From positions 50,249 through 114,248 of the forward strand of contig DATJUI010000015.1 of the NCBI GenBank assembly GCA_035502455.1: 64,000 bases of DNA, given 5' to 3'. Made by a program: the position numbers and the translations under genes. This DNA is from Thermoplasmata archaeon. GTDB lineage: Archaea > Thermoplasmatota > Thermoplasmata > Lutacidiplasmatales > UBA184. Below are positions 2,176 through 48,639 of the stretch, piece after piece (the stretch's first letter is position 1; every line of letters starts with the position of its first letter). Under the pieces are notes generated by a model, which made no database searches, had not been told where the DNA came from, and saw nothing but the letters and a program-made list of their open reading frames with translations.

Positions 2176-3342
2176 ATGCCCGCGGTGAAGGTGACCACAC
2201 GGACCCGACGCCCGGCCGGCGCGAAGCGCGAGATGAAGCGGGGCCCGGACACGGCGCGGATCGCCGTCGTCGGGATCCCGGCCTCGGGCAAGACGACGTA
2301 CTTCAGGTTCCTCTCGGGGCATTTCGGGCTCAACCTGCCGATCCTGTACATCCCGGCCCGGGTCGACAACGGGACGATGCCGCTGTACGGGGACCTCGAG
2401 AACGACGTCGCGCTCGAGGAGACGACGTACGAGACGACCGACCCCACCGACCCCGAGGGGAGCCTCGAGACGACGACCCGGTACTACGTCAATCGGCCGA
2501 TGGAGGACCGGCGCAAGCTGTGGGTCGAGCTCTCGGCGGGCCGGGAGGACCAGGGGATCCTCACGAAGTACCCGCTGCCGACCAAGTTCAACCAGTTCGT
2601 CGAGATGAAGCTCCGCTTCCGCTACGGGGCCGCCGACGGCGACGCCGGCTCGCGGCCGATGGAGCTGCAGACGATCGACGAGGCGGGCGGGATCATCGCC
2701 GACTACTTCACCTACGATCGGCTCTGGCTCGACTCGACCGACGCCGAGGTCTCCGAGAAGTCGTGCCGGGTGATCCCGCACTTCGACTCGTGGCGCCCCG
2801 ACCGCCGGGACCTCTGGCGCCGCGGGCTCACCCTGCTGGGACGGTTCGTCCAGGAGGCCGACGCGATCATCCTCCTGCTCGCCCCCGGGCTCCCGTCGCT
2901 GCGCGACCAGGCCCAGCAGGTCAACCTCGCCCGCGGCGTGTTCCGGTACGTCCGGGCCCGCAACCTCCCGCTCGTCATCGCGATCTCGAAGTCGGACAAG
3001 CTCAACGAGTTCTACGGCGAGGTCGAGCAGTCCGTGCGGGACCGCACGTTCCGCAGCGCGTTCGATCCCGTCGACTTCCTGCTCCGGCGCGACGGGGCCG
3101 GGATGGGCACGATCCTCGTCGCCCAGGAAGGGCGGGGGATCTCGGTGAAGGAGGACGTCTACCTGATCGCGTCCGCGGTCTCGACCGGCGAAGGGCACCC
3201 GCTGTTCATCGGCGAGACCGGTCAGGAGGCGCCGACGTCCGGCACGACCACGCTGGGGGTCCCCGTGATGGTCAACACGACCCTGCCGCTCGCGCGCGCC
3301 TGCGAGCGGATCCTCGCGCTCCGCGCGACCAAGGGGTCGTGA
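2176..3342 (+). CDS. Divergent Ras-like small GTPase (P-loop NTPase) with a long insertion between G1 and G3
   Basis: G1 GIPASGKTT, G3 IDEAGG (DxxG), G4 AISKSDK (NKxD variant SKSD) and G5 ASAV in canonical order. It starts 10 nt after the vWA gene, and its stop overlaps the next start (ATGA). Confidence 0.7.
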   Translation: MPAVKVTTRTRRPAGAKREMKRGPDTARIAVVGIPASGKTTYFRFLSGHFGLNLPILYIPARVDNGTMPLYGDLENDVALEETTYETTDPTDPEGSLETTTRYYVNRPMEDRRKLWVELSAGREDQGILTKYPLPTKFNQFVEMKLRFRYGAADGDAGSRPMELQTIDEAGGIIADYFTYDRLWLDSTDAEVSEKSCRVIPHFDSWRPDRRDLWRRGLTLLGRFVQEADAIILLLAPGLPSLRDQAQQVNLARGVFRYVRARNLPLVIAISKSDKLNEFYGEVEQSVRDRTFRSAFDPVDFLLRRDGAGMGTILVAQEGRGISVKEDVYLIASAVSTGEGHPLFIGETGQEAPTSGTTTLGVPVMVNTTLPLARACERILALRATKGS

Positions 3343-6332
3343 TGGCCGCGGCCGAGCCGCGCGCCGTCGGGACCCTCGCGCCGATCGCGGTCGTCTGGTG
3401 CCGGCAGGTCGACAACGAGGCGGAGAGCCCGGGCTACACGACGATCCCCGAGGAGTTCCCCGGCCGGCGGGACACCCTGGAGACGATCCGGCACGTCGGG
3501 AACCTCACGATCAACGTCGCCGACACCCACGACTACTGGGACCCCGAGCCCGGGCAGACGCTGTCGTACTACCCGAACCTGTTCCTGTACCCCACCGCCG
3601 GCGGACGTCACATCTGCGTCGGCCGGATGTTCCTCTCCACCGAGGACCGCCCGCGGCTCGGGATGAAGACGCTCGTCTTCGACACCGCCACGCTGGTCGA
3701 GTCCGGGGACTTCGGCGGGGCCCTCCTGCGCGCCCACGCGACGATGGGGTCGAGGTCCGAGGGGCCGCGCAAGGCGGAGGCCGAGCCCGACCCGTCCGTG
3801 ATCGCGGCGGTCGGCGAGGGGTTCCTCTTCCACCGCGGCTCGACCGAGGCGGTCGTCCTCGTCGCCGCCGAGCAGTGGGAGGCCGCCAACCGGGTGCTCG
3901 CCGAGCTCGTGCGGCGGCTGCCCGTCTCGCTCGTCGCCCTCGGCGCGTTCCTGTCGTTCCCGTACTTCCTGCCCGAGGCGAAGGTGAACCTCCACGAGTT
4001 CACCGAGTCGCTGCCGCTCGCGCTGGCGATCATGCGCGTCCCCCGCGGCGAGGCCCAGGGCGAACGGCACGCGAAGCGCCTGTCGAGCTGGGAGGCCGGC
4101 CCCGTCGCGGTCCGCGACCTCACCCGCCCGTCGCCCGGCCGCGCGAAGGAGACCCTCCCGACCGTCCTCCAGTACGTCCGCGACCACGCCGACGACAAGC
4201 TCGCGGAGATCGCCCGGCGCGTCGATCTCGTCGAGCTGCCCCGCCTGCGCTCCTCCGGGACGGATCCCGAGCACCAGACCGGCCGCGACCGGCGCAAGGA
4301 GATGTGGCGGATCGGGACGGCGATGGAGACCGCCGCGCTCCTGATCGCGCGCCCGAAGGGCCGGACCGTGCCCGTGAGCGCCGACGCGAGCCGGCGGGCG
4401 AACGAGTACCTGCGCGCCCGTCCGGCCGACGGCGTCGGCCCGGTCGAGCCGACCGCGCCGCCCCCGCTCGATCTCCCCGCCCCGGCGGCGTCGCCCCTCG
4501 TCGCCCAGCTCCCGCCGTGGCTGCAGCGGCCGGCCGAGGTGACGCTCCCGCCGGCCGGCCCGGTCGCCGTGCCGGTGTCGATCAGCGACGACCCGTCGCT
4601 CCAGCGCAATCCGGCGCCGCCCGCCGTCGCGAGCGGCCCGACCCCGGGCGCCCCGCCCGGGGCGAACGACCCCGACCTCGAGGCCTGGCTCCGCCGGGAG
4701 GTCGAGGCCCGGTTCCAGGAGCTCAGCCGCGCGCTGCCCCCGAGCCCCGGCACCGCCGCCTTCGAGCAGCGGATGCAGGAGCTCGGCCGCGAGCTCGAGT
4801 CGAAGTGGACCCGGGCCCTCGAGACCCGGGTGCGCGAGGTCGCCGAGGTCGAGGCCCGGGCGATCCTGTCGCTCCAGCACGACCTCTCGGGCCGGCTCAA
4901 CGCCGTGGAGGCGCGGCCGGTCCCCGTGCTGCCGCCGAGCGCCGACGAGACAGCCCAGCAGATCCGCACGGCCGTCGAGGCGCGGGCGCAGCTGCTCGCC
5001 GAGACGCTGCGCGAGAGCGTCCGCCAGTCGAGCGAGATGTGGGCGGCCGCGCTCAAGCTCGAGCTCCACCGGTCCGTCGACGAGCTCGCGGCGAAGTCGG
5101 CCCGCTCCGAGGAGGAGCTCCGCGCCGGCCTCGTCGCCCAGCTCGACCTCGAGCTGCGGGAGACGAAGGAGCAGGCGACCGCGCTGCGCGAGGAGGTCGA
5201 AGGGCGGGTGCGCGACCTCCTCAACGAGCGGTGGAACGAGATCGACCAGCGGCGCCAGAAGGAGGTCCGGGACGTGGAGCAGCGGCTCACGCTCCTCTCC
5301 GACGGGCGCGCGAAGGACCTCGAGGCGAAGCTGACGTCGATGATCGCCGCGGAACGGGAGCGCACCCAGGCCGCCTTCGAAGAGCGGGTCCAGGCCGCCG
5401 AGCGCCGGCTCGCCGTCGAGCAGGAGTCCCGGGCGACCGAGGTCTCCGAATCGCAGGGCCAGTCGCTCGCCGGGTTCCAGGTGAGGATGCAGGCGTTCTT
5501 CGAGCAGAAGCTCCGGGAGAACCAGGAGCGGGAACGCGAGAAGTACGTGGAACTGCTCGCCCGCTTCAAGGGCGAGGTCGACTCGGCCCTCGGCCGCACG
5601 ATCGACTCGACCAAGTTCGACGCGGCCGTTCGGGAGCGCGTCGCGCGCGTCCTGGACGCGGCGCGCGCGGACCAGGAGAAGACGATCGCCTCGCGCGTCA
5701 CCGACGCCGAGGTCCGCCTGCGCTCGGCGCAGGAGGAGGCCGCGCTGCGGCTCGAGCGGGTCGAGTCGAAGCTCCAGCAGCGGGAGACCGACCTCGCGCG
5801 CATCGAGCGGTCGGTGCGGCACGACGCGGAGGAGATCGAGCGCCGGGTGCAGGTGCTGACCGACCGGATGCTGCCGCTCGTCCGCAAGACGTGGCTCAAG
5901 GTCGGCGAGCTCGAGAAGGCCGGTCCGATCCCGGGCGACGTCGAGGCCCGGACCGAGGCGATCCGGCGGGAGATGACCCGCGAGCTGCGCCGCATCGAGG
6001 GCGAGATGCTCGAGCAGACGACGGAGCTCCGCGACCGGCTCGAGACCACGATCTCCCAGCAGGGCCGCATCTGGCTCAACTTCGTCCACCAGCTCGCGGA
6101 GGCCGGCGCGAACCTGATGCCGGCCGATGCGTCGAGCGGCCGCTCGTCGCGCCGGCTCGCGCCGCGGCCGAACCTCGGCCGCGCCGAGGACGCGGACGTC
6201 GACCTGCGGGCGACCGCCGGGGTCGACGCGTTCGCCGAGGACCCCGCGAACCCGCTCGACCCGGATCCGCTCGCCGATCCCGAGGCGGGCCGGGACGTCC
6301 GCCGCCGCAGCCGCCCCCGGACGGGCGGCTAG
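3342..6332 (+). CDS. Large (~996 aa) protein: globular N-terminal region, Pro/Ala-rich linker, ~450-aa coiled coil
   Basis: Internal ATG at 3342 overlaps the upstream stop, so the listed ORF 2520..6332 is over-extended at the N-terminus. Residues ~480-930 are continuous heptad-like charged, Ala/Leu/Glu/Arg-rich sequence (EARAILSLQHDLSGRLNAVE... ELRAGLVAQLDLELRETKEQ...). Confidence 0.7.
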   Translation: MAAAEPRAVGTLAPIAVVWCRQVDNEAESPGYTTIPEEFPGRRDTLETIRHVGNLTINVADTHDYWDPEPGQTLSYYPNLFLYPTAGGRHICVGRMFLSTEDRPRLGMKTLVFDTATLVESGDFGGALLRAHATMGSRSEGPRKAEAEPDPSVIAAVGEGFLFHRGSTEAVVLVAAEQWEAANRVLAELVRRLPVSLVALGAFLSFPYFLPEAKVNLHEFTESLPLALAIMRVPRGEAQGERHAKRLSSWEAGPVAVRDLTRPSPGRAKETLPTVLQYVRDHADDKLAEIARRVDLVELPRLRSSGTDPEHQTGRDRRKEMWRIGTAMETAALLIARPKGRTVPVSADASRRANEYLRARPADGVGPVEPTAPPPLDLPAPAASPLVAQLPPWLQRPAEVTLPPAGPVAVPVSISDDPSLQRNPAPPAVASGPTPGAPPGANDPDLEAWLRREVEARFQELSRALPPSPGTAAFEQRMQELGRELESKWTRALETRVREVAEVEARAILSLQHDLSGRLNAVEARPVPVLPPSADETAQQIRTAVEARAQLLAETLRESVRQSSEMWAAALKLELHRSVDELAAKSARSEEELRAGLVAQLDLELRETKEQATALREEVEGRVRDLLNERWNEIDQRRQKEVRDVEQRLTLLSDGRAKDLEAKLTSMIAAERERTQAAFEERVQAAERRLAVEQESRATEVSESQGQSLAGFQVRMQAFFEQKLRENQEREREKYVELLARFKGEVDSALGRTIDSTKFDAAVRERVARVLDAARADQEKTIASRVTDAEVRLRSAQEEAALRLERVESKLQQRETDLARIERSVRHDAEEIERRVQVLTDRMLPLVRKTWLKVGELEKAGPIPGDVEARTEAIRREMTRELRRIEGEMLEQTTELRDRLETTISQQGRIWLNFVHQLAEAGANLMPADASSGRSSRRLAPRPNLGRAEDADVDLRATAGVDAFAEDPANPLDPDPLADPEAGRDVRRRSRPRTGG

Positions 6333-6565: not shown

Positions 6566-7363
6566 ATGCCTCGGTTCGGGACGGCGGTCCTGGGCGGCAC
6601 GTTCGACCGGTTCCACGTCGGCCACGCGGCCCTGCTGGCCGCGGCGTTCGCCGCCGGACGGACCGTCGCGATCGGCCTCACGACCCCGGGGTACCTCGCC
6701 GCCCACCCGAAGCCGGACGGCGGCCGGATCCAGCCGTACGCGACGCGGCGAGCGGCCGTCGTGCGCTGGATCCGCCGGGCCCGGCCCCACGCCGCCTTCC
6801 GGATCGTGGCGCTCCGCGACCCGTTCGGCGGGTCGGTCGGCCCCGGGGTCGACGTGCTGGTCGTCTCCGCGGAGACCCGGCGCGGCGGGGCGGCGGTCAA
6901 CCGGGAGCGCCGGCGCCGCGGCCTCCCCGCCGTCCCCGTCGTCACCGTCCCGATCGTGCTCGCCGACGACCTCGGTCCGGTCAGCTCCCGGCGGATCCGC
7001 GCGGGCGAGATCGACCGGTCGGGGGGGCGACGCGCACCGATCGCGATCGGGCTCTCGGTCCCGCCCGCGCTCCGCGCGTCGGCGGTCCGCGGCGTGCGGC
7101 GGGCGTTCCCGACCGCCCGCCTCGCGCTCCTCGGCGGGCCGTTCCCGCGAGCGGGCCCCCCGCGGCGCGGGCTCTCGAGGCTCGCCGCGGCGGCGGGCGC
7201 CGGCCGCGACCTGGGGGTCGCGGTCCGGGTCGGACCGGCGGGCGACGCGTGGGCCGCCGAGGCGACGGCGACCGTCGCGCTCGCCCCGACGCTCCTGACC
7301 CGGCCCGACGCGGGCCGGATCGCCGCCTGGCTGGCCCCGTCCCGTCGGCGCAAGTCCTTTTGA
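6566..7363 (+). CDS. coaD: Archaeal-type phosphopantetheine adenylyltransferase-like cytidylyltransferase with a ~110-aa low-complexity C-terminal extension
   Basis: N-terminal GGTFDRFHVGH (nucleotidyltransferase HxGH motif) and the ISxxxIR-like region SSRRIRAGEI. The C-terminal third is Ala/Arg/Pro-rich low complexity. Confidence 0.65.
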   Translation: MPRFGTAVLGGTFDRFHVGHAALLAAAFAAGRTVAIGLTTPGYLAAHPKPDGGRIQPYATRRAAVVRWIRRARPHAAFRIVALRDPFGGSVGPGVDVLVVSAETRRGGAAVNRERRRRGLPAVPVVTVPIVLADDLGPVSSRRIRAGEIDRSGGRRAPIAIGLSVPPALRASAVRGVRRAFPTARLALLGGPFPRAGPPRRGLSRLAAAAGAGRDLGVAVRVGPAGDAWAAEATATVALAPTLLTRPDAGRIAAWLAPSRRRKSF

Positions 7364-7385: not shown

Positions 7386-7607
7386 ATGGAAACCTACCTT
7401 CGGGTGACGTTCGACAGCGAGGGCGGCAAACCGAGCGAGGTCGGGAACCGGCTGCGCTCGTGCGGGTTCGTCCCGACCCAGGGGAACTACGACTTCGTCT
7501 ACGACTGGAACGGACCGGCGACCCGGGACCAGATCCTCGACCTCTCGGACGAGCTCACCCGGCAGCTCCGCTCGTACCGGGTGCTGTTCGAGATCGAGAC
7601 GATCTGA
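7386..7607 (+). CDS. Small conserved protein of unknown family (paralogue of 47374..47604)
   Basis: 73 aa; shares the pattern DSEG...GF.P..G.YDFVYDW..PAT.D..L...D......RV.F.IE with the ORF at 47374..47604. Confidence 0.6.
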   Translation: METYLRVTFDSEGGKPSEVGNRLRSCGFVPTQGNYDFVYDWNGPATRDQILDLSDELTRQLRSYRVLFEIETI

Positions 7608-7649
7608 GCGCCGGTAGGGCTTTTATCGCGTCCCACCCGTACTCGGCCG

Positions 7650-7967
7650 ATGCAGCGCTACCCGGTCCGGCCGACCCACCGCAAGGGACTCGCGGCCGAG
7701 CCGCTCGCGGAGCTCCTTCGGGCGTCGTTCGAGGAGGTGCGCGTGGAGGGAGACGGCGCGTCGGCGTCGTTCGGGGCGATCGTGCGGATCGTCGCGCGCC
7801 CCGAGGGCCGGGAGCTCGCGATCGAGGTCACGATGAACCCGAAGGTCCCCGAGGAGGTCGCCGCCGAGACGATCCAGCGGTACAACCGCTTCCTCGAGGC
7901 GGTGACCGGATACTCCGCGAAGGAGCGGGCGAAGCGCCTCCGCAAAACCGCCGCCGGTGGGGAGTAA
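7650..7967 (+). CDS. Hypothetical small protein
   Basis: 105-aa ORF with balanced composition in the gap between flanking genes; no recognisable motif. Confidence 0.45.
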   Translation: MQRYPVRPTHRKGLAAEPLAELLRASFEEVRVEGDGASASFGAIVRIVARPEGRELAIEVTMNPKVPEEVAAETIQRYNRFLEAVTGYSAKERAKRLRKTAAGGE

Positions 7968-9552
7968 CGGCGTGCCGGCCGGGGGTTCCGGTCCGCTCCC
8001 GTCGGGCGCCGGGGGTTCCGAGCTCGAGCGGATCCGCGCGATCGTCGCCGCCTACTTTCCGGTCTACGAGACCCGGGTCGGGCCCCAGTCGCTCCTGCTC
8101 GCGATCCACCCGGACCCCGCGACCCTCGAGACGAAGTTCGACGCGCTACGGCGCGAGCTGTGGCCGAAGCAGTACGTGCCGCTCCTGCGGCGGCAGTCCG
8201 GCGAGGAGTTCATCGAGGTCGTCCGCCGGCCGCCGGTCGGCCCGTCGCGGACCTGGATCAACCTCCTGCTGCTCGCCGGCACGGTCCTCACCACGACGTT
8301 CGCCGGCGCGCTGATCTGGCTCGCGTACGTCGGCAGCAACACCCTCGGCCTCGGGGACTTCGCCTACGGCGCGCTCTACTTCGCGGCGCCGGTGCTCCTC
8401 ATCCTCGGGCTCCACGAGTTCGCCCACTTCTGGATGGCCCGCCGCCACCACCTGGACGCGTCGCTCCCGTACTTCATCCCGGTCCCGCCGCCGCTCCTGT
8501 TCGGGACGCTCGGGGCGTTCATCTCGATCCGCGAGCCGTTCCCGGACAAGAAGGCGCTGTTCGACGTCGGCGTCGCGGGCCCGCTGGCCGGGTTCGCCGT
8601 CTCGATCCCGATCGCGATCGCCGGGCTGTTCCTCTCCGTGCACGCCCCGTCGGTCCCGGCGAGCTACTGCGGGCCGACGATCCTCGGGGTCAGCTACGGG
8701 AACCTGCTCATCGGCACGCCGCTCCTCTGGCTCGGGCTCCAGCTGTTCGTCCCCGTGAGCACGAGCCTGAGCCCGCTCGCGCTCGCGGGCTGGGTCGGGA
8801 TCCTGGTCACCGCGATCAACCTCCTGCCCGCCGGTCAGCTCGACGGCGGCCACGTCTTTCGGGCGCTGTTCGGCGACCGGGTCCGCTGGGTGAGCTACGG
8901 CGCCGTGCTCGTGATGTTCGGCATCGGGATCTTCTTCTACGCCGGCTGGCTGTTCTTCGCCCTCCTGATCCTGCTCCTCGGGGTCCGCCATCCGCCGCCG
9001 CTCAACGACCTCAGTCCCCTCGACTGGAAACGGGGGGCCATCGGCGCGTTCGCGATCGGGGTGCTCGTCGTCGGGTTCGTGCTGACGCCGCTCGCGACGC
9101 CCGCCGGGGCGGTCGCGTTCCAGAACAACGGGATCGGCTACCCGACGGCCCCGCCGGGGGCCGCCGTGTACACGAACCTCTCGACGCAGCTCGCCAACCA
9201 GGACCCGCTGCCGCACGGGTTCGTCGTCGCGGGGTCGGTCGTCAACGTCTCGGTGCCCGTGGGGAACTCGAGCGAGTACCTGACCGGGGCGGCGTTCGCG
9301 AGCTGGACCGCGAACGTGACGTGGACGGTCTACCTGCCGCACGGGGCGGTCTACACCGCCCGCGGGGCGTCGTTCGCGCTGCCGTCGAGCGACTTCCTGA
9401 CGATCAACGGGACGACCTGGGCGCCGCTCGCGATCGGCTTCGCGAGCCCCGCGGCGGCCACCAGCGCGGGGATCGACCTCTCGGCCTCGGAGTTCTGCGC
9501 GCTGACCGGCGGGTCCGCCTCGACCTCGTTCGCGCCGAGCTGGGACGCCTAG
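7957..9552 (+). CDS. Site-2 protease family (M50) membrane metalloprotease with a C-terminal extracytoplasmic domain
   Basis: HEFAHFWMARRH (HExxH inside a TM helix), the LDGG motif (LLPAGQLDGGHVF) and multiple TM segments. The C-terminal ~150 aa carry N-glycosylation sequons. Confidence 0.85.
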   Translation: MGSNGVPAGGSGPLPSGAGGSELERIRAIVAAYFPVYETRVGPQSLLLAIHPDPATLETKFDALRRELWPKQYVPLLRRQSGEEFIEVVRRPPVGPSRTWINLLLLAGTVLTTTFAGALIWLAYVGSNTLGLGDFAYGALYFAAPVLLILGLHEFAHFWMARRHHLDASLPYFIPVPPPLLFGTLGAFISIREPFPDKKALFDVGVAGPLAGFAVSIPIAIAGLFLSVHAPSVPASYCGPTILGVSYGNLLIGTPLLWLGLQLFVPVSTSLSPLALAGWVGILVTAINLLPAGQLDGGHVFRALFGDRVRWVSYGAVLVMFGIGIFFYAGWLFFALLILLLGVRHPPPLNDLSPLDWKRGAIGAFAIGVLVVGFVLTPLATPAGAVAFQNNGIGYPTAPPGAAVYTNLSTQLANQDPLPHGFVVAGSVVNVSVPVGNSSEYLTGAAFASWTANVTWTVYLPHGAVYTARGASFALPSSDFLTINGTTWAPLAIGFASPAAATSAGIDLSASEFCALTGGSASTSFAPSWDA

Positions 9553-29362: not shown

Positions 29363-29382
29363 CGCGGACGGAGCCGGCGACA

Positions 29383-29457
29383 CGGGCGCGGAGGGATTTG
29401 AACCCTCGACCGCCGGGTTAGGAACCCGGTGCCCTATCCAAGCTAGGCTACGCGCCC
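29383..29457 (-). tRNA. tRNA-Arg (anticodon CCU), CCA not encoded
   Basis: Cloverleaf: acceptor GGGCGCG/CGCGCCC, D-arm GCCT-AGCTTGGATA-GGGC, anticodon stem CCGGG/CCCGG with loop TTCCTAA, variable CGGTC, T-arm GAGGG-TTCAAAT-CCCTC, discriminator G. T-rich stretch downstream. Confidence 0.85.
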
Positions 29458-29483
29458 GATCCCGTCCGACCCTCGGCGGGTTA

Positions 29484-45377: not shown

Positions 45378-47333
45378 GTGGCCGCTGGGATGGTCGACTT
45401 CGAGCTCCTCGAGCGCGACGGCCTCGCGCGGCTCGGCCGGTTCTCGACCCCGCACGGGACGGTCGAGACCCCGAGCCTCCTCCCGGTCGTCCACCCGGAT
45501 CCGGCGCGGCAACCGGTCGCGCCGACGCGCATGCGCGAGGAGTTCGGGCTCCGTGCGCTGATCACATCCGCGTACATCACCTGGCGGACCCCGCCGCTGC
45601 GGGCGGTGGCGGAACGCGACGGGATCCACGGACTGGTCCATTTTGACGGGCCGATCATGACCGACTCGGGCGCCTTCCAGCAGCACGCCTACGGCTCGGT
45701 CGAGGTCGGCCCGGACGAGATCATGGACTTCCAGCAGCGGATCGGTTCCGACATCGCGACGGTGCTCGATCGCTTCACCGAACCCGAGTCGCCCCGGGCC
45801 GCGGCCGAAGCGGCCCTCGCCGAGACGCTCGACCGGGCGGTCTCCGCCCGGGCCCGGCACCCCGGCCTCCTCGCCGTGCCGATCCAGGGGGGCGCCTTCG
45901 ACGACCTCCGGGTCCGCTCGGCCGCCGCCGCGAGCGAGCTCGGCGACGTGCTGGCGCTCGGGGGCGTCGTTCCGCTGCTCGAGCAGTATCGGTTCGTCGA
46001 TCTCGCGCGCGCCGTCGCGGCCGCGCGTCCGTCGATCACCCCGGGCGCGCCGCTGCACCTGTTCGGCGCCGGGCACCCGCTCGTCTTCGCGTTCGCGGCG
46101 CTCGCCGGGGTCGATCTCGTCGACTCGTCGGCCTACCACAAGTTCGCCCGGCGCGGCGAGCTCCTCTTCTCCGAGGGGACCGTCGCGCTCGATGACGTAC
46201 GCGAGGAGATCTGCCGGTGCGCGCTCTGCCGCGAGCGACCGCTGCCCGAGCTGCGGCGGCGGCCGGCGGCGGAGCGGGAGGCCCACCTCGCCGCGCACAA
46301 CCTGCTCGTTTCGTCCGAGGAGATGGCGCGGGTCCGCCAGGCGATCCGGGACGGCACCCTGTGGGAGCTCGCCGAGCGGCGGGCGACCGCCCACCCGGCC
46401 CTGCGCGCCGGCCTCGAGGAGCTCGCGCGGCATCCCGAGATCTTCCTTCCAGTGGAGCCGGAGTCGCGGCGCGCCTTCCGCGAGACGGGACCGGGTTCGC
46501 TCGGTCGGCCGAGCGCCGTGCGGTTCCGTCGTCGCCTCTCCGCCTTCGGTGGCTCCGCCCCGACGGCGCACCGCGTCCCCCGGGTCGCGCTCACTCCCGA
46601 GTTCCTCGGCCGGATCCCGCCCGACGATCCGAACGGGCGTCCGGTCCGCTGGGAGGTCGACTCCCCGTTCGGCCCGGTGCCGATCGAACTGTCCGACCTC
46701 TACCCGGTCGGCCCGTTCCTCGGGATCTCCGAGTTCCTCGGGGAGCGGCGCCGCACCTCCCCGGGCGAGCTCGGCCGCATCGCGGCCGCCGAACGGGGCG
46801 CCACGCCCTCCCCGGACCGCGACTGGTCCGCGGAGTGGGACCGGCGGCAGGTCGACGCGCTCCTGCGCTGGCAGTACGGCCCGGAGGTCGCGGCCGGCCT
46901 GGGGGCCGAACTGACCGCGGAGCGGTCCCGCCGGACGGGGCGGATCCGCCGGCTGGTCGCCGGGCACGCCCCGTGGTTCGTCGTCGGGGACGACGGCCTC
47001 CCGCGGCCGACGTTCCGCGGCGCGACGCGCCTCCACGCCCTGTGGACCCACGGGGAGCGCCGCGTCGCGGTCGCCGACGACGCGGTCCCGTTCGTCCGGG
47101 CCGGGCGGAGCCTGTTCGCGCGGTTCGTGGTCGGGGCCGACCCGGCGCTGGTGCCCGACGCGAGCGCCCTCCTCGTCGACGGGGACGACGCCCTCCTCGC
47201 GGTGGGCCGACTCCTGCTCGCGCCGCACGAGATCCCTCGGTTCCGTCGGGGGGTCGCCGCCCGGGTCACGAGCCACGCGGCCGCGCCGGACGTCGCCGAC
47301 GACGCGCCCGACGCGCCCGAGTCGGACCGGTGA
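45378..47333 (+). CDS. tgtA: Archaeosine tRNA-guanine transglycosylase (ArcTGT) with C-terminal domains
   Basis: RLGRFSTPHGTVETP, FDGPIMTDSGAFQ (TGT catalytic core), zinc site CRCALCRE...H; 651 aa. Confidence 0.85.
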   Translation: MAAGMVDFELLERDGLARLGRFSTPHGTVETPSLLPVVHPDPARQPVAPTRMREEFGLRALITSAYITWRTPPLRAVAERDGIHGLVHFDGPIMTDSGAFQQHAYGSVEVGPDEIMDFQQRIGSDIATVLDRFTEPESPRAAAEAALAETLDRAVSARARHPGLLAVPIQGGAFDDLRVRSAAAASELGDVLALGGVVPLLEQYRFVDLARAVAAARPSITPGAPLHLFGAGHPLVFAFAALAGVDLVDSSAYHKFARRGELLFSEGTVALDDVREEICRCALCRERPLPELRRRPAAEREAHLAAHNLLVSSEEMARVRQAIRDGTLWELAERRATAHPALRAGLEELARHPEIFLPVEPESRRAFRETGPGSLGRPSAVRFRRRLSAFGGSAPTAHRVPRVALTPEFLGRIPPDDPNGRPVRWEVDSPFGPVPIELSDLYPVGPFLGISEFLGERRRTSPGELGRIAAAERGATPSPDRDWSAEWDRRQVDALLRWQYGPEVAAGLGAELTAERSRRTGRIRRLVAGHAPWFVVGDDGLPRPTFRGATRLHALWTHGERRVAVADDAVPFVRAGRSLFARFVVGADPALVPDASALLVDGDDALLAVGRLLLAPHEIPRFRRGVAARVTSHAAAPDVADDAPDAPESDR

Positions 47334-47373
47334 TGTTATCCCGCGATATCCGTAGCTCGTCGTTCGCGGCCCG

Positions 47374-47604
47374 ATGACGAAGACCTTCCTCCTGCTCCAG
47401 CTCGACAGCGAGGGGGCTCCGTACTCCTCGGTCGCCGAGGTCCTCGAGGACCTCGGCTTTCGGCCGGAGACGGAGGGCTACGACTTCGTCTACGACTGGC
47501 AACGGCCCGCGACGATCGACGAGTCGCTCGCGTTCGCCGACCGGATCCAGGAAGCGCTGCGCGGGAAACGCGTCCGGTTCCGGATCGAGTCGACCGACGA
47601 CTGA
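47374..47604 (+). CDS. Small conserved protein of unknown family (paralogue of 7386..7607)
   Basis: 76 aa: LDSEGAPYSSVAEVLEDLGFRPETEGYDFVYDWQRPATIDESL...RVRFRIES. Confidence 0.6.
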   Translation: MTKTFLLLQLDSEGAPYSSVAEVLEDLGFRPETEGYDFVYDWQRPATIDESLAFADRIQEALRGKRVRFRIESTDD

Positions 47605-47623: not shown

Positions 47624-47631
47624 GTTATAAT
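47624..47631 (+). promoter_or_regulatory. TATA box (GTTATAAT) upstream of kae1
   Basis: 22-29 nt upstream of the ATG at 47653. Confidence 0.45.
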
Positions 47632-47652: not shown

Positions 47653-48639
47653 ATGATCGTCCTCGGGATCGAGTCGACGGCGCACACGGCGTCCGTCGGC
47701 ATCGTCGACGGGACGGCGACGGTCCTCGGGCTCGCGTCGGACATGTACCGACCGCCCGCGGGCGGGATCCACCCGCGCGAGGCGGCGAACCACCATGTCG
47801 AGCGGTTCCCGTCGCTGGTCCGGGGCGCGCTCGAGGCCGCCCAGGTGCGGCCGTCGGAGATCGACGCGGTCGCGTTCGCCCAGGGGCCCGGACTCGGCCC
47901 GTGCCTGCGGGCCGGCGCGACGGTCGCCCGGGTCCTCGCGCTCTCGTGGGACCGGCCGCTCGTCCCGGTCAACCACTGCGTCGCGCACGTGGAGATCGCG
48001 CGCGTGCTGAGCGGGCTCGACGACCCGCTCTTGTTGTACGCGAGCGGCGGTAACACCCAGGTGATCGCCCACGGCCGCGGGCGCTACCGCGTCCTCGGCG
48101 AGACGCTCGACATCGGCATCGGGAACTTCCTCGACAAGCTGTGGATCGACCTCGGCGGGGTCTTTCCGGGCGGCCCGGCGATCGAGCAGGAGGCGAAGCT
48201 CGGGCAGTCGCTCCTGCCGCTCCCGTACTCGGTGCACGGCATGGACGTCGCGTTCTCGGGGATGCTCACCGCCGCGCTCGCGCTCCGCGAGAAGGGGGCG
48301 AGCCGGCCCGACCTCTCGTACTCCGTGGAGGTGACCGCCTACGCGATGCTGACGGAGATCACGGAGCGGGCGCTCGCCCACCGCCGGCGCGACGGCGTCG
48401 TCCTCGGCGGCGGGGTCGCGTGCAACGAGCGGCTCCGCGGGATGGTGCGCGCGATGGTGGAGAGCCGCGGCGGCACGATGTTCGCGCCGCCCCGCAGCCT
48501 CTGCGTCGACAACGGCGCGATGATCGCCTGGACCGGCCTCCTCGGGCACCGCGCGGGGCTGCGCGTCGCCATCGCCGATTCCGCGATCCAGCCCCGCCAG
48601 CGGACGGACCTCGTGGAAACGCCGTGGCGCGGGAGCTGA
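47653..48639 (+). CDS. kae1: tRNA N6-adenosine threonylcarbamoyltransferase Kae1 (KEOPS catalytic subunit), not fused to Bud32
   Basis: LGIESTAHTASVGIVD, HHVERF (metal-binding His pair), GGGVACNERLR. Confidence 0.9.
   Translation: MIVLGIESTAHTASVGIVDGTATVLGLASDMYRPPAGGIHPREAANHHVERFPSLVRGALEAAQVRPSEIDAVAFAQGPGLGPCLRAGATVARVLALSWDRPLVPVNHCVAHVEIARVLSGLDDPLLLYASGGNTQVIAHGRGRYRVLGETLDIGIGNFLDKLWIDLGGVFPGGPAIEQEAKLGQSLLPLPYSVHGMDVAFSGMLTAALALREKGASRPDLSYSVEVTAYAMLTEITERALAHRRRDGVVLGGGVACNERLRGMVRAMVESRGGTMFAPPRSLCVDNGAMIAWTGLLGHRAGLRVAIADSAIQPRQRTDLVETPWRGS

What the first reader, a model, noticed from the sequence alone, without database searches (positions are those of the whole stretch)
7386..7607. 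Two paralogous ~75-aa proteins of unknown family in one window (7386-7607 and 47374-47604)
Both share DSEG..(S)EV....GF.P...(G)YDFVYDW..PAT.D..L...D......RV.F.IE over their full length, and each sits in a short slot between tRNA- or CoA-related genes. The second lies 49 nt upstream of kae1, where KEOPS accessory subunits are sometimes encoded, but it does not resemble Pcc1, Cgi121 or Gon7. Duplicated, conserved, tiny proteins suggest a real but unannotated family.
Basis: seen in the sequence. Interest (0 to 1): 0.55.

Follow-up and report, generated by a model that had tools for sequence, protein, structure and literature searches.

The report
Uncharacterised small archaeal protein family, duplicated
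The two ~75-residue proteins are real paralogues of a conserved archaeal protein family that no curated database describes; the family has a very common small fold, its function is still unknown, and its position next to kae1 holds only in one lineage.

Summary
ORF A (7386-7607, 73 aa) and ORF B (47374-47604, 76 aa) are 45% identical over 71 residues (E 3e-20).

- **Selection:** each has hundreds of close homologues in Thermoplasmata MAGs. B has dN/dS of about 0.3 across 66 species-level genomes.
- **Range:** 185 clusters at 50% identity, in Thermoplasmatota and Methanosarcinales (Methanosarcina, ANME-2c). All are called "hypothetical protein".
- **Database status:** no Pfam, NCBIfam or PDB sequence match.
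- **Fold:** AlphaFold gives a confident ferredoxin-like beta-alpha-beta-beta-alpha-beta fold (pLDDT 89). Foldseek finds only generic matches (MTH1187/DUF77, Cas2, ACT, Lrp RAM). Profile comparison gives a weak, in-register resemblance to stand-alone RAM domains through a shared G-x-x-D hairpin. This is inconclusive.
- **Domain partners:** rare relatives are tandem-fused (pTM 0.85) or fused to winged-helix or zinc-ribbon modules.
- **Gene order:** arcTGT-B-kae1 holds in almost all of 80 species-level genomes, decays below about 60% identity and is absent elsewhere. kae1 usually has its own TATA-like element. A-like genes lie beside the same M50 (site-2-type) protease in two distant lineages, on opposite sides.

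Best guess, at low confidence: a dimerising module that binds a small ligand or a partner protein. It is not a recognisable KEOPS subunit. Interest is modest; this is a discovery at the level of a "domain of unknown function".

The parts
7386..7607 (+). Paralogue A: 73-aa protein of the new family. This is the 'A-like', widespread subfamily that starts M[EK]TYL.
   Evidence: ORF from ATG to TGA with GC3 0.93. It has 265 homologue clusters at 74-89% identity, scores 3e-30 against the family profile, and is 45% identical to B.
47374..47604 (+). Paralogue B: 76-aa protein of the new family. This is the lineage-restricted 'B-type' subfamily that starts MTKTFLLLQLDSEG.
   Evidence: ORF with GC3 0.92. 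It matches NCBI VMG99_05760 'hypothetical protein' at 100%, and 339 clusters in all. dN/dS is 0.30 over 66 genomes. The AF2 model has pLDDT 89 and pTM 0.76, with a beta-alpha-beta-beta-alpha-beta fold.
47336..47351 (+). A/T-rich TATA-like elements (TTATCC, GATATCC) 23-38 nt upstream of the B start codon; inferred to be B's own promoter.
   Evidence: Read from the sequence. All 80 related loci have an A/T run of at least 4 nt within 70 nt upstream of B, against 16% of random 70-nt windows. Function is inferred, not shown.
7358..7361 (+). T-run (TTTT) 25-28 nt upstream of the A start codon, overlapping the stop of the upstream PPAT-like gene; a possible TATA-like element for a leaderless A transcript.
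   Evidence: Read from the sequence only; inferred.
45378..47333 (+). arcTGT (TGT + C2 + PUA domains), 40 nt upstream of B; a conserved neighbour of B-type genes.
   Evidence: Pfam TGT 3e-70, PUA and TGT_C2. It is adjacent to B in nearly all of 80 species-level loci.
47653..48639 (+). kae1 (TsaD/Kae1 family, not fused to Bud32), 48 nt downstream of B, with its own TTATAA at 47625-47630.
   Evidence: Pfam TsaD 9e-73. It is adjacent in most loci and displaced by 2-3.5 kb in the more divergent ones. A TATA-like run lies at -30..-26 in 34 of 65 loci.
7650..7967 (+). DUF5611 (Ta0095-like) gene between A and the M50 protease gene. It overlaps the M50 start by 11 nt and has its own TTTTAT at 7621-7626.
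   Evidence: Pfam DUF5611 1.6e-21. PDB 2JOI (Ta0095) 4e-7. The order A>DUF5611>M50 is conserved.
7957..9552 (+). M50 (site-2-protease family) membrane metalloprotease; the only neighbour that A-like genes share between two distant lineages.
   Evidence: Pfam Peptidase_M50 8e-19. It is 40% identical (E 1e-83) to the M50 that lies immediately upstream of the family gene in 65 of 70 sediment-metagenome loci.

Best explanation
A and B are two anciently diverged paralogues of an undescribed family of small (about 73-76 aa), mostly acidic, cytosolic archaeal proteins. The family occurs in Thermoplasmatota and Methanosarcinales, and each protein is a single ferredoxin-like beta-alpha-beta-beta-alpha-beta domain.

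My best reading is that the domain is a self-associating module, with a dimer as the basic unit. It would bind a small ligand or a partner protein through its two conserved polar clusters. The first cluster is the S-E-G loop after strand 1 together with the near-invariant G-x-x-D at the beta2-beta3 turn. The second is the Trp at the end of strand 3 together with the E/T at the end of strand 4. On this view it acts as a stand-alone regulatory or sensor subunit, in the way that stand-alone RAM, ACT or MTH1187/YkoF-type modules do.

A-like genes are the widespread form and are genomically tied to an M50 (site-2-type) membrane protease. B is a lineage-specific paralogue parked between arcTGT and kae1.

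What is shown: the paralogy, the conservation, purifying selection on B (not measured for A), the predicted fold, the fusions and the gene orders. What is inferred: dimerisation, ligand or partner binding, any regulatory role, and which protein is the partner.
For: - Real coding family: E 3e-20 between the paralogues; 339 and 265 homologue clusters; 185 clusters at 50% identity in an exhaustive HMM search; dN/dS 0.30; GC3 0.92-0.93.
- Fold: AF2 pLDDT 89, pTM 0.76, with strands at 2-10, 37-41 and 67-75 and helices at 17-26 and 48-62. Foldseek's best matches are all small ferredoxin-like ligand-binding or oligomeric modules: MTH1187/DUF77, Cas2, MzrA, ACT and Lrp RAM, with TM 0.5-0.69.
- RAM-like signal: hhalign of the family against archaeal stand-alone RAM domains aligns in register from strand 1 to helix 2. 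Scores are 18.8-25.6 and P is 2e-4 to 6e-3, against about 10 +/- 2 for 200 column shuffles and 12-14 for reversed profiles. The only invariant RAM columns (G35, D38) align with the family's most conserved G34 and D37.
- Dimer: natural tandem fusions exist (P0242, P0364, P0377). AF2 packs the two halves of P0242 with pLDDT 92 and pTM 0.85.
- Regulatory company: P0386 carries the domain plus a TrmB-type winged helix (32 bits, above the Pfam cut-off). P0352 carries a winged helix and P0284/P0291 carry zinc ribbons, all below cut-off.
- Not a typical nucleic-acid binder: pI 4.4-4.6 for the window pair and a family median of 5.6.
- RAM precedent: RAM pockets are formed between dimers, and stand-alone RAM proteins form hetero-oligomers with partners (PMC2995911).
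Against: - No member reaches significance against any known family. Pfam AsnC_trans_reg, ACT and Thiamine_BP hit none of 75 members at E<0.1.
- hhalign probabilities are only 6-45% for RAM.
- One subgroup scores about as well against MTH1187/DUF77 (score 22.8, 18%) as against RAM, so the RAM signal may be generic to the fold.
- Foldseek has no hit below E 1e-3 for the single domain.
- The tandem model does not superpose on known tandem ACT or YkoF arrangements (TM about 0.3).
- In the winged-helix fusions the domain is N-terminal, the opposite of Lrp.
- No ligand, oligomer or partner was observed, and model coordinates could not be inspected, so the clustering of conserved residues is deduced from topology alone.
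Confidence: 0.35

Rival explanations
1. These are neighbour-specific accessory subunits. B would be a lineage-specific small subunit or adaptor of the tRNA-modification machinery encoded on either side of it (Kae1/KEOPS or arcTGT). A would be a cytosolic partner or regulator of the adjacent M50 intramembrane protease. Both would act by protein-protein contact and need no ligand.
For: arcTGT>B>kae1 is kept in almost all of 80 species-level genomes. B stays within about 2-3.5 kb of kae1 in most loci even where other genes have been inserted. A-like genes sit next to the same M50 orthologue (40% identity, E 1e-83) in two lineages that share no other neighbour. The gene is on opposite sides of M50 in the two lineages: A>DUF5611>M50 here, and M50>gene in 65 of 70 sediment loci. 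The proteins are acidic, which fits protein-protein contacts.
Against: The link to kae1 and arcTGT disappears in more distant relatives and in Methanosarcina, so it may only be inherited gene order within one order-level clade. B, kae1 and DUF5611-M50 each have their own TATA-like element. There is no similarity to Pcc1, Cgi121 or Gon7. No fusion to Kae1, TGT or M50 was found among 1.84 billion representatives. hhalign against the M50 N-terminal region and against DUF5611 finds nothing.
Confidence: 0.2
2. The family is a general factor linked to RNA modification or RNA metabolism, for example a shared activator or hub for several RNA-modifying enzymes, as Trm112 is for methyltransferases.
For: In 4 of about 10 independent gene contexts an immediate neighbour is an RNA-modification enzyme: arcTGT plus Kae1; a SpoU methyltransferase (72 of 78 loci); TiaS; and FtsJ. 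Helicases (DEAD, Lhr), AlaX and ProRS also lie nearby. I estimate a chance rate of about 4% per context; that figure rests on my own assumption that about 2% of genes are RNA-modification genes.
Against: The category was chosen after seeing the data. The enzymes are unrelated to each other. Several orientations are convergent or divergent, so they are not operons. The Methanosarcina, P0393, P0465 and L080 contexts have no such neighbour. The acidic pI argues against direct RNA binding. Foldseek's top 50 contains no RRM, THUMP or Trm112-like hit.
Confidence: 0.1
3. The proteins are Cas2/VapD-like small nucleases or toxins, using the acidic residues at the end of strand 1 to bind a metal.
For: Cas2 chains give the highest TM-scores (0.65-0.69), and VapD also appears in the list. 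The conserved D-S-E after strand 1 sits where Cas2 has its metal-binding Asp; this last point is from my own recollection of Cas2.
Against: No cas genes, CRISPR arrays or antitoxin partners lie nearby, and the contexts are housekeeping and syntenic. Sequence identity is 9-14% and Foldseek E-values are at or above 7.6e-3. The genes are stable and vertically conserved, one per subfamily per genome, unlike mobile toxins.
Confidence: 0.03
4. These are chance ORFs or a non-coding similarity in GC-rich DNA.
For: High-GC genomes produce many long spurious ORFs, as the ORF lists show.
Against: E 3e-20 between the copies; hundreds of full-length homologues, including in low-GC genomes and cultured Methanosarcina; dN/dS 0.30; GC3 0.92-0.93; a confident AF2 fold.
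Confidence: 0.01

Closest known systems
Stand-alone RAM-domain proteins of the Lrp/AsnC (feast/famine) family, e.g. P. horikoshii DM1 (2E1A), S. tokodaii 2ZBC (Pfam PF01037)
   Same: Same size (about 72-83 aa) and the same beta-alpha-beta-beta-alpha-beta order. Both are archaeal stand-alone proteins. hhalign aligns them in register. Both have a G-x-[YF]-D motif at the beta2-beta3 turn that is the best-conserved feature. Some family members are fused to winged-helix DNA-binding domains. The physiological role of stand-alone RAM proteins is also unclear (PMC2995911).
   Different: There is no significant sequence match: PF01037 hits 0 of 75 members, and hhalign probability is 6-45%. The family has its own invariant S-E-G loop and Trp. 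In the fusions the winged helix is C-terminal, whereas in Lrp it is N-terminal. Octamer formation and amino-acid binding are untested.
MTH1187/YkoF (UPF0045, DUF77, Pfam PF01910) small ligand-binding proteins
   Same: These are the top Foldseek matches (1LXN at 4.4e-3, 2EKY, 1YQH; 17-21% identity, TM 0.57-0.59). They are small ferredoxin-like oligomers, and a tandem-duplicated form exists (YkoF), as this family has P0242.
   Different: They are about 25 residues longer. Profile comparison is mostly out of register and not significant (scores 13-18; one subgroup reaches 22.8). Pfam Thiamine_BP does not hit. The tandem arrangements do not superpose (TM about 0.35).
ACT domains (including tandem ACT proteins such as GcvR-like 1U8S, SerB2 and the AHAS small subunit)
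   Same: They share the ferredoxin-like fold and a conserved Gly-containing beta1-alpha1 loop at the position where ACT domains bind ligands; that ACT property is from my own knowledge. They are the best Foldseek matches for the tandem model (1U8S at 7e-4).
   Different: Global TM is only about 0.3 for the tandem model and 0.5 for the single domain, and there is no sequence signal.
Small KEOPS subunits Pcc1, Pcc2/Gon7 and Cgi121
   Same: They are small proteins that act with Kae1, and B is encoded 48 nt upstream of kae1.
   Different: No Pfam hit to the Pcc1, CGI-121 or Gon7 families even at E up to 10. No KEOPS chain is in Foldseek's top 50. The synteny is lineage-specific. The family also occurs far from kae1 and as a second copy next to an M50 protease.

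Membership tests
Stand-alone RAM / Lrp-AsnC C-terminal domain (PF01037) | Match to the Pfam AsnC_trans_reg model | tested here: not met
   0 of 75 diverse members hit PF01037 at E<0.1. A local RAM HMM gives a best E of 0.012 among about 480 family sequences.
Stand-alone RAM / Lrp-AsnC C-terminal domain (PF01037) | beta-alpha-beta-beta-alpha-beta fold of about 75 residues | tested here: met
   AF2 model with pLDDT 89 and elements E2-10, H17-26, E37-41, H48-62, E67-75. Lrp RAM chains appear in the Foldseek list with TM 0.57-0.63.
Stand-alone RAM / Lrp-AsnC C-terminal domain (PF01037) | Conserved G-x-x-D at the beta2-beta3 turn, aligned in register (profile-profile homology) | tested here: inconclusive
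   The motif aligns (family G34/D37 with RAM G35/D38). hhalign P is 2e-4 to 6e-3 and the scores exceed the shuffled and reversed controls. However, probability is only 6-45%, and one subgroup scores similarly against DUF77.
Stand-alone RAM / Lrp-AsnC C-terminal domain (PF01037) | Dimer-to-octamer assembly with an amino-acid pocket between dimers | not testable with these tools
   The only evidence is indirect: tandem fusions exist and the tandem AF2 model has pTM 0.85. The RAM property is taken from PMC2995911.
MTH1187/YkoF (UPF0045, PF01910) | Sequence or profile match to the family | tested here: not met
   No Pfam hit. hhalign scores are 13-18 and out of register for the main profiles. Foldseek E is 4e-3 with TM 0.59 only.
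KEOPS small subunits (Pcc1 PF09341, Cgi121 PF08617, Gon7 PF08738) | Sequence or fold similarity to a known subunit | tested here: not met
   No hit at E up to 10 in Pfam, and none in Foldseek's PDB top 50.
KEOPS small subunits (Pcc1 PF09341, Cgi121 PF08617, Gon7 PF08738) | Physical association with Kae1 or Bud32, and an effect on t6A | not testable with these tools
   Only synteny is available. It is conserved in one lineage, lost elsewhere, and kae1 usually has its own TATA-like element.
Cas2 / VapD | Association with cas1 and a CRISPR array, or with a toxin-antitoxin partner | tested here: not met
   The neighbours are housekeeping genes in every context examined. The resemblance is at fold level only (TM up to 0.69, identity 9-14%).

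The most novel reading that the evidence does not exclude
The family is a new RAM-like class of stand-alone metabolite sensors that plug into non-transcriptional machinery. The A-type would gate an archaeal site-2 (M50) intramembrane protease, whose physiological role in archaea is listed as unknown (PMC9263693). The B-type would couple tRNA modification (KEOPS t6A and/or arcTGT archaeosine) to metabolic state in one Thermoplasmata lineage.
Probability: 0.1. Interest if true: 0.65.

Novelty: new member of a known kind. Interest (0 to 1): 0.3.

Why it matters
If the family is what it appears to be, it adds one more conserved small-protein family to the archaeal "dark matter". It has a clear route to experiment, because a homologue exists in cultured, genetically tractable Methanosarcina (MSKOL_1168 and relatives).

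The recurrent pairing of A-like genes with an M50 site-2-type protease gives a concrete candidate partner for a class of archaeal proteases whose substrates and regulation are unknown. The B copy beside kae1 and arcTGT is a cheap hypothesis to test for lineage-specific accessory factors of tRNA modification.

As it stands, this is a finding at the level of a "domain of unknown function". It is useful for annotation (a Pfam or NCBIfam model could be built from alignment A2) but is not surprising in kind.

Tried and rejected
- **Curated libraries.** I scanned both paralogues against Pfam and NCBIfam, and 75 diverse members against Pfam. Only noise came back: TY-Chap3 at 0.023 and DUF1257 at 0.059.
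- **PDB sequence and profile searches.** Nothing scored below E 0.1. A weak partial match to an HMA-domain protein was noted (E 0.54).
- **Very long 'homologues'.** P0241, P0244, P0268, P0276, P0342 and P0355 from the representative search are summed matches to cell-surface repeats (GFTVQISNYDxxYTWAGTATASG). I rejected them as spurious.
- **Genome scan with the broad alignment A2.** The narrower A3 returned only B-type loci among the 80 kept, so the other 469 confirmed loci could not be inspected.
- **hhalign against neighbours.** The family profile against the M50 N-terminal region and against DUF5611 showed no similarity.
- **Larger RAM profile.** The fetched loci held only one RAM protein, so I took PDB sequences from printed alignments instead.
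- **MTH1187/DUF77 homology.** The alignment was out of register or no better than RAM, so I rejected family membership.
- **Tandem model against the PDB.** Only topology-level matches were found (TM about 0.3).
- **Literature.** There were no papers for 'DUF5611', and none of the 10 listed KEOPS/Thermoplasmata papers is, by title and abstract, about these small proteins; they were not opened.
- **tRNA and Rfam scan of the window.** Only tRNA-Arg(CCT) was found, and it is unrelated.

Full report
**1. The observation**

A is 7386..7607 (73 aa) and B is 47374..47604 (76 aa). Third-position GC is 0.93 and 0.92 in a window of 72.8% GC. A profile scan of all six frames finds exactly these two copies in the 64 kb.

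The neighbours are as described.
- Around A: DUF2116, a cytidylyltransferase-like (PPAT-type) gene, A, DUF5611, then an M50 peptidase.
- Around B: arcTGT (TGT+C2+PUA), B, Kae1/TsaD, then a geranylgeranyl-reductase-like flavoprotein.
- Gaps: 22 nt (PPAT to A), 42 nt (A to DUF5611), 40 nt (TGT to B) and 48 nt (B to kae1).

**2. It is a real, conserved gene family**

- B matches 339 database clusters and A matches 265. Nearly all are 73 or 76 aa, 74-89% identical, from Thermoplasmata MAGs, and named "hypothetical protein". B itself is NCBI VMG99_05760.
- The hits fall into two clean subfamilies: METYLRVTFDSEG... and MTKTFLLLQLDSEG....
- Both subfamilies occur on the same long contigs, about 36-56 kb apart, as in the window.
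- Over 66 B-type genes from species-level genomes, median dN is 0.225, dS is 0.774 and dN/dS is 0.30.
- An exhaustive HMM search of 1.84 billion representatives finds 185 clusters at E<=1e-3. Six very long hits are artefacts of a cell-surface repeat.
- A scan of GTDB species representatives confirms 549 loci.
- A profile search and cluster look-ups extend the range to Methanosarcina (MSKOL_1168; M. vacuolata), Methanosarcinaceae and ANME-2c (UniRef100_A0A7G9YHM3).
- None of 75 diverse members matches Pfam-A, neither window paralogue matches NCBIfam, and the family profile has no PDB sequence match.

**3. Structure**

AlphaFold2 on a 30-sequence alignment gives pLDDT 89 and pTM 0.76. The order of elements is beta1 (2-10), alpha1 (17-26), a short beta2, beta3 (37-41), alpha2 (48-62), beta4 (67-75). 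This is a ferredoxin-like alpha+beta sandwich.

Foldseek against the PDB has no hit below E 1e-3. The list is a catalogue of small ferredoxin-like modules: MTH1187/DUF77, Cas2, MzrA, S6 permutants, ACT, Lrp RAM, VapD and dimeric alpha/beta barrels, with TM 0.5-0.69.

The best-conserved positions across the family are T4, the S-E-G loop after beta1, G28-F29, G34, D37, W42, D56, L62 and E/T72-73. From the topology I infer two conserved polar clusters, one at each end of the sheet. I could not inspect coordinates, so this is inference only. The window pair is acidic (pI 4.4-4.6). The family median pI is 5.6 and 20 of 75 members are basic.

**4. Remote relationships**

*RAM domains.* hhalign of the family against a stand-alone RAM (AsnC_trans_reg) protein, found by chance in locus L098, aligned in register through S-E-G, helix 1 and G-x-Y-D-F.
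- Against a 4-sequence archaeal RAM profile taken from PDB alignments: score 25.6, P 2.2e-4, probability 45%.
- Against a 7-sequence profile that includes bacterial Lrp: score 18.8, probability 6%.
- Controls: 200 column shuffles gave 10 +/- 2 and none reached the observed score; reversed profiles gave 12-14.
- The only invariant RAM columns (G35, D38) align with the family's G34 and D37.

*MTH1187/DUF77.* This profile scored 13-18 and was out of register. One divergent "short" subgroup scored 22.8 against it, about the same as against RAM.

My conclusion is that the resemblance to RAM is the best lead, but homology is unproven. Filing the family under RAM, ACT or MTH1187 is not justified.

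**5. Domain combinations**

Rare relatives are tandem duplications (P0242, P0364, P0377). AF2 models P0242 with pLDDT 92 and pTM 0.85, so the two halves pack confidently as a pseudo-dimer. The arrangement does not match known tandem ACT or YkoF proteins (TM about 0.3).

P0386 carries the domain followed by a TrmB-type winged helix that scores above the Pfam cut-off. P0352 has a sub-threshold winged helix, and P0284 and P0291 have C-terminal zinc ribbons. This company fits a sensor or oligomerisation module.

**6. Gene neighbourhoods**

*B-type.* arcTGT>B>kae1>GGR holds in nearly all of 80 species-level loci. Below about 62% identity kae1 is pushed 2-3.5 kb away. At or below 59% identity arcTGT is no longer found next to B; it is replaced by a DEAD-type helicase in the loci inspected, and the order becomes B>MurJ>kae1. 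In L080, L081 and L084 both neighbours are gone.

All 80 loci have a TATA-like A/T run upstream of B, against a 16% background. kae1 has one at -30..-26 in 34 of 65 loci, including TTATAA at 47625-47630 here. B and kae1 therefore need not be co-transcribed.

*A-type.* DUF2116>PPAT>A>DUF5611>M50<UPF0020 methylase is conserved in two further genomes. In a different Thermoplasmata lineage sampled from sediments (80 loci, 64-81% identical to P0391), the gene lies immediately downstream of an M50 peptidase in 65 of 70 loci. It is convergent with a SpoU methyltransferase in 72 of 78 loci. That M50 is the orthologue of the window's M50 (40% identity, E 1e-83), and no other neighbour is shared. The link to M50 has therefore survived rearrangement, which is the strongest contextual clue.

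*Other contexts*:
- TiaS divergent from the gene.
- FtsJ>gene<Lhr.
- An epimerase divergent from the gene, followed by a 135-aa ORF, a GNAT and AlaX.
- DUF7121>gene<AP-endonuclease-2.
- Methanosarcina: a permease>gene<a metallophosphoesterase.
- L080: a membrane protein and an HTH protein.

Four of about ten contexts place an RNA-modification enzyme immediately next to the gene. This is suggestive, but I chose the category after seeing the data.

**7. Interpretation**

The family is a real, undescribed, single-domain ferredoxin-like protein family. A represents the widespread form and B is a lineage-restricted paralogue.

The best-supported mechanism, at low confidence (0.35), is a dimerising module that binds a small ligand or a partner protein and acts as a stand-alone regulatory subunit. 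Stand-alone RAM domains are the nearest analogy. The literature describes them as amino-acid-binding, hetero-oligomer-forming and physiologically unclear (PMC2995911).

The main rival (0.2) is a pure adaptor role towards the neighbours, Kae1 or arcTGT for B and M50 for A. Archaeal S2P/M50 functions are listed as unknown (PMC9263693), so an M50 partner would be useful to find. A KEOPS-subunit identity for B is not supported by sequence, by fold, or by synteny outside one lineage.

**8. Verdict**

Novelty is a new family with a very common fold. Interest is 0.3.

Noticed in passing
window 2520-6332 (+); also L187:920-4219: A very long ORF lies upstream of the DUF2116-PPAT-A cluster (1270 aa as listed; the true start is uncertain). 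It has an E/R/A-rich, probably coiled-coil, C-terminal half. The corresponding 1099-aa gene in a related MAG has no Pfam hit on record. It looks like a large conserved protein of unknown function.
   Followed up: no
window 6566-7363 (+): The PPAT-like cytidylyltransferase is 265 aa here and 266-315 aa in close relatives, but only 168 aa in a more distant MAG (L187). The Pfam domain covers residues 8-145, so the lineage carries a C-terminal extension of about 100 residues with no assigned domain.
   Followed up: partly
window 7650-7967 and 7957-9552 (+): DUF5611 (related to Thermoplasma Ta0095, PDB 2JOI, function unknown) overlaps the start of the M50 protease gene by 11 nt and has a TTTTAT about 24-29 nt upstream of its ATG. 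This is probably a two-gene DUF5611-M50 operon with a leaderless transcript.
   Followed up: partly
window 47625-47630, 7621-7626, 7358-7361, 47336-47351: Short A/T-rich elements sit about 23-38 nt upstream of the start codons of kae1, DUF5611, A and B, in DNA that is otherwise 73% GC. This is consistent with archaeal TATA boxes and leaderless or short-leader mRNAs.
   Followed up: partly
proteins P0241, P0244, P0268, P0276, P0342 (not in the window): Huge proteins (797-5285 aa) made of repeats with the motif GFTVQISNYD(A/S)xYTWAGTATASG matched the family profile only through summed weak hits to the YDxxYxW stretch. They are a separate, repeat-rich and probably surface-protein family.
   Followed up: partly
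L098:9209-9442 (-) / L084: A canonical 77-aa stand-alone RAM (AsnC_trans_reg) protein is encoded about 4 kb from a member of the new family in one Thermoplasmatota MAG. The two kinds of small protein therefore coexist in one genome.
   Followed up: partly
window 29382-29458 (-): The only RNA gene detected in the window is tRNA-Arg (anticodon CCT). There are no other Rfam matches at gathering threshold.
   Followed up: yes
L012 and L081 (GTDB records titled 'bacterium'): Two genome records labelled 'bacterium' carry typical B-type family genes. L012 also carries the Thermoplasmata arcTGT-B-kae1 arrangement. These MAGs are probably mislabelled archaea.
   Followed up: no
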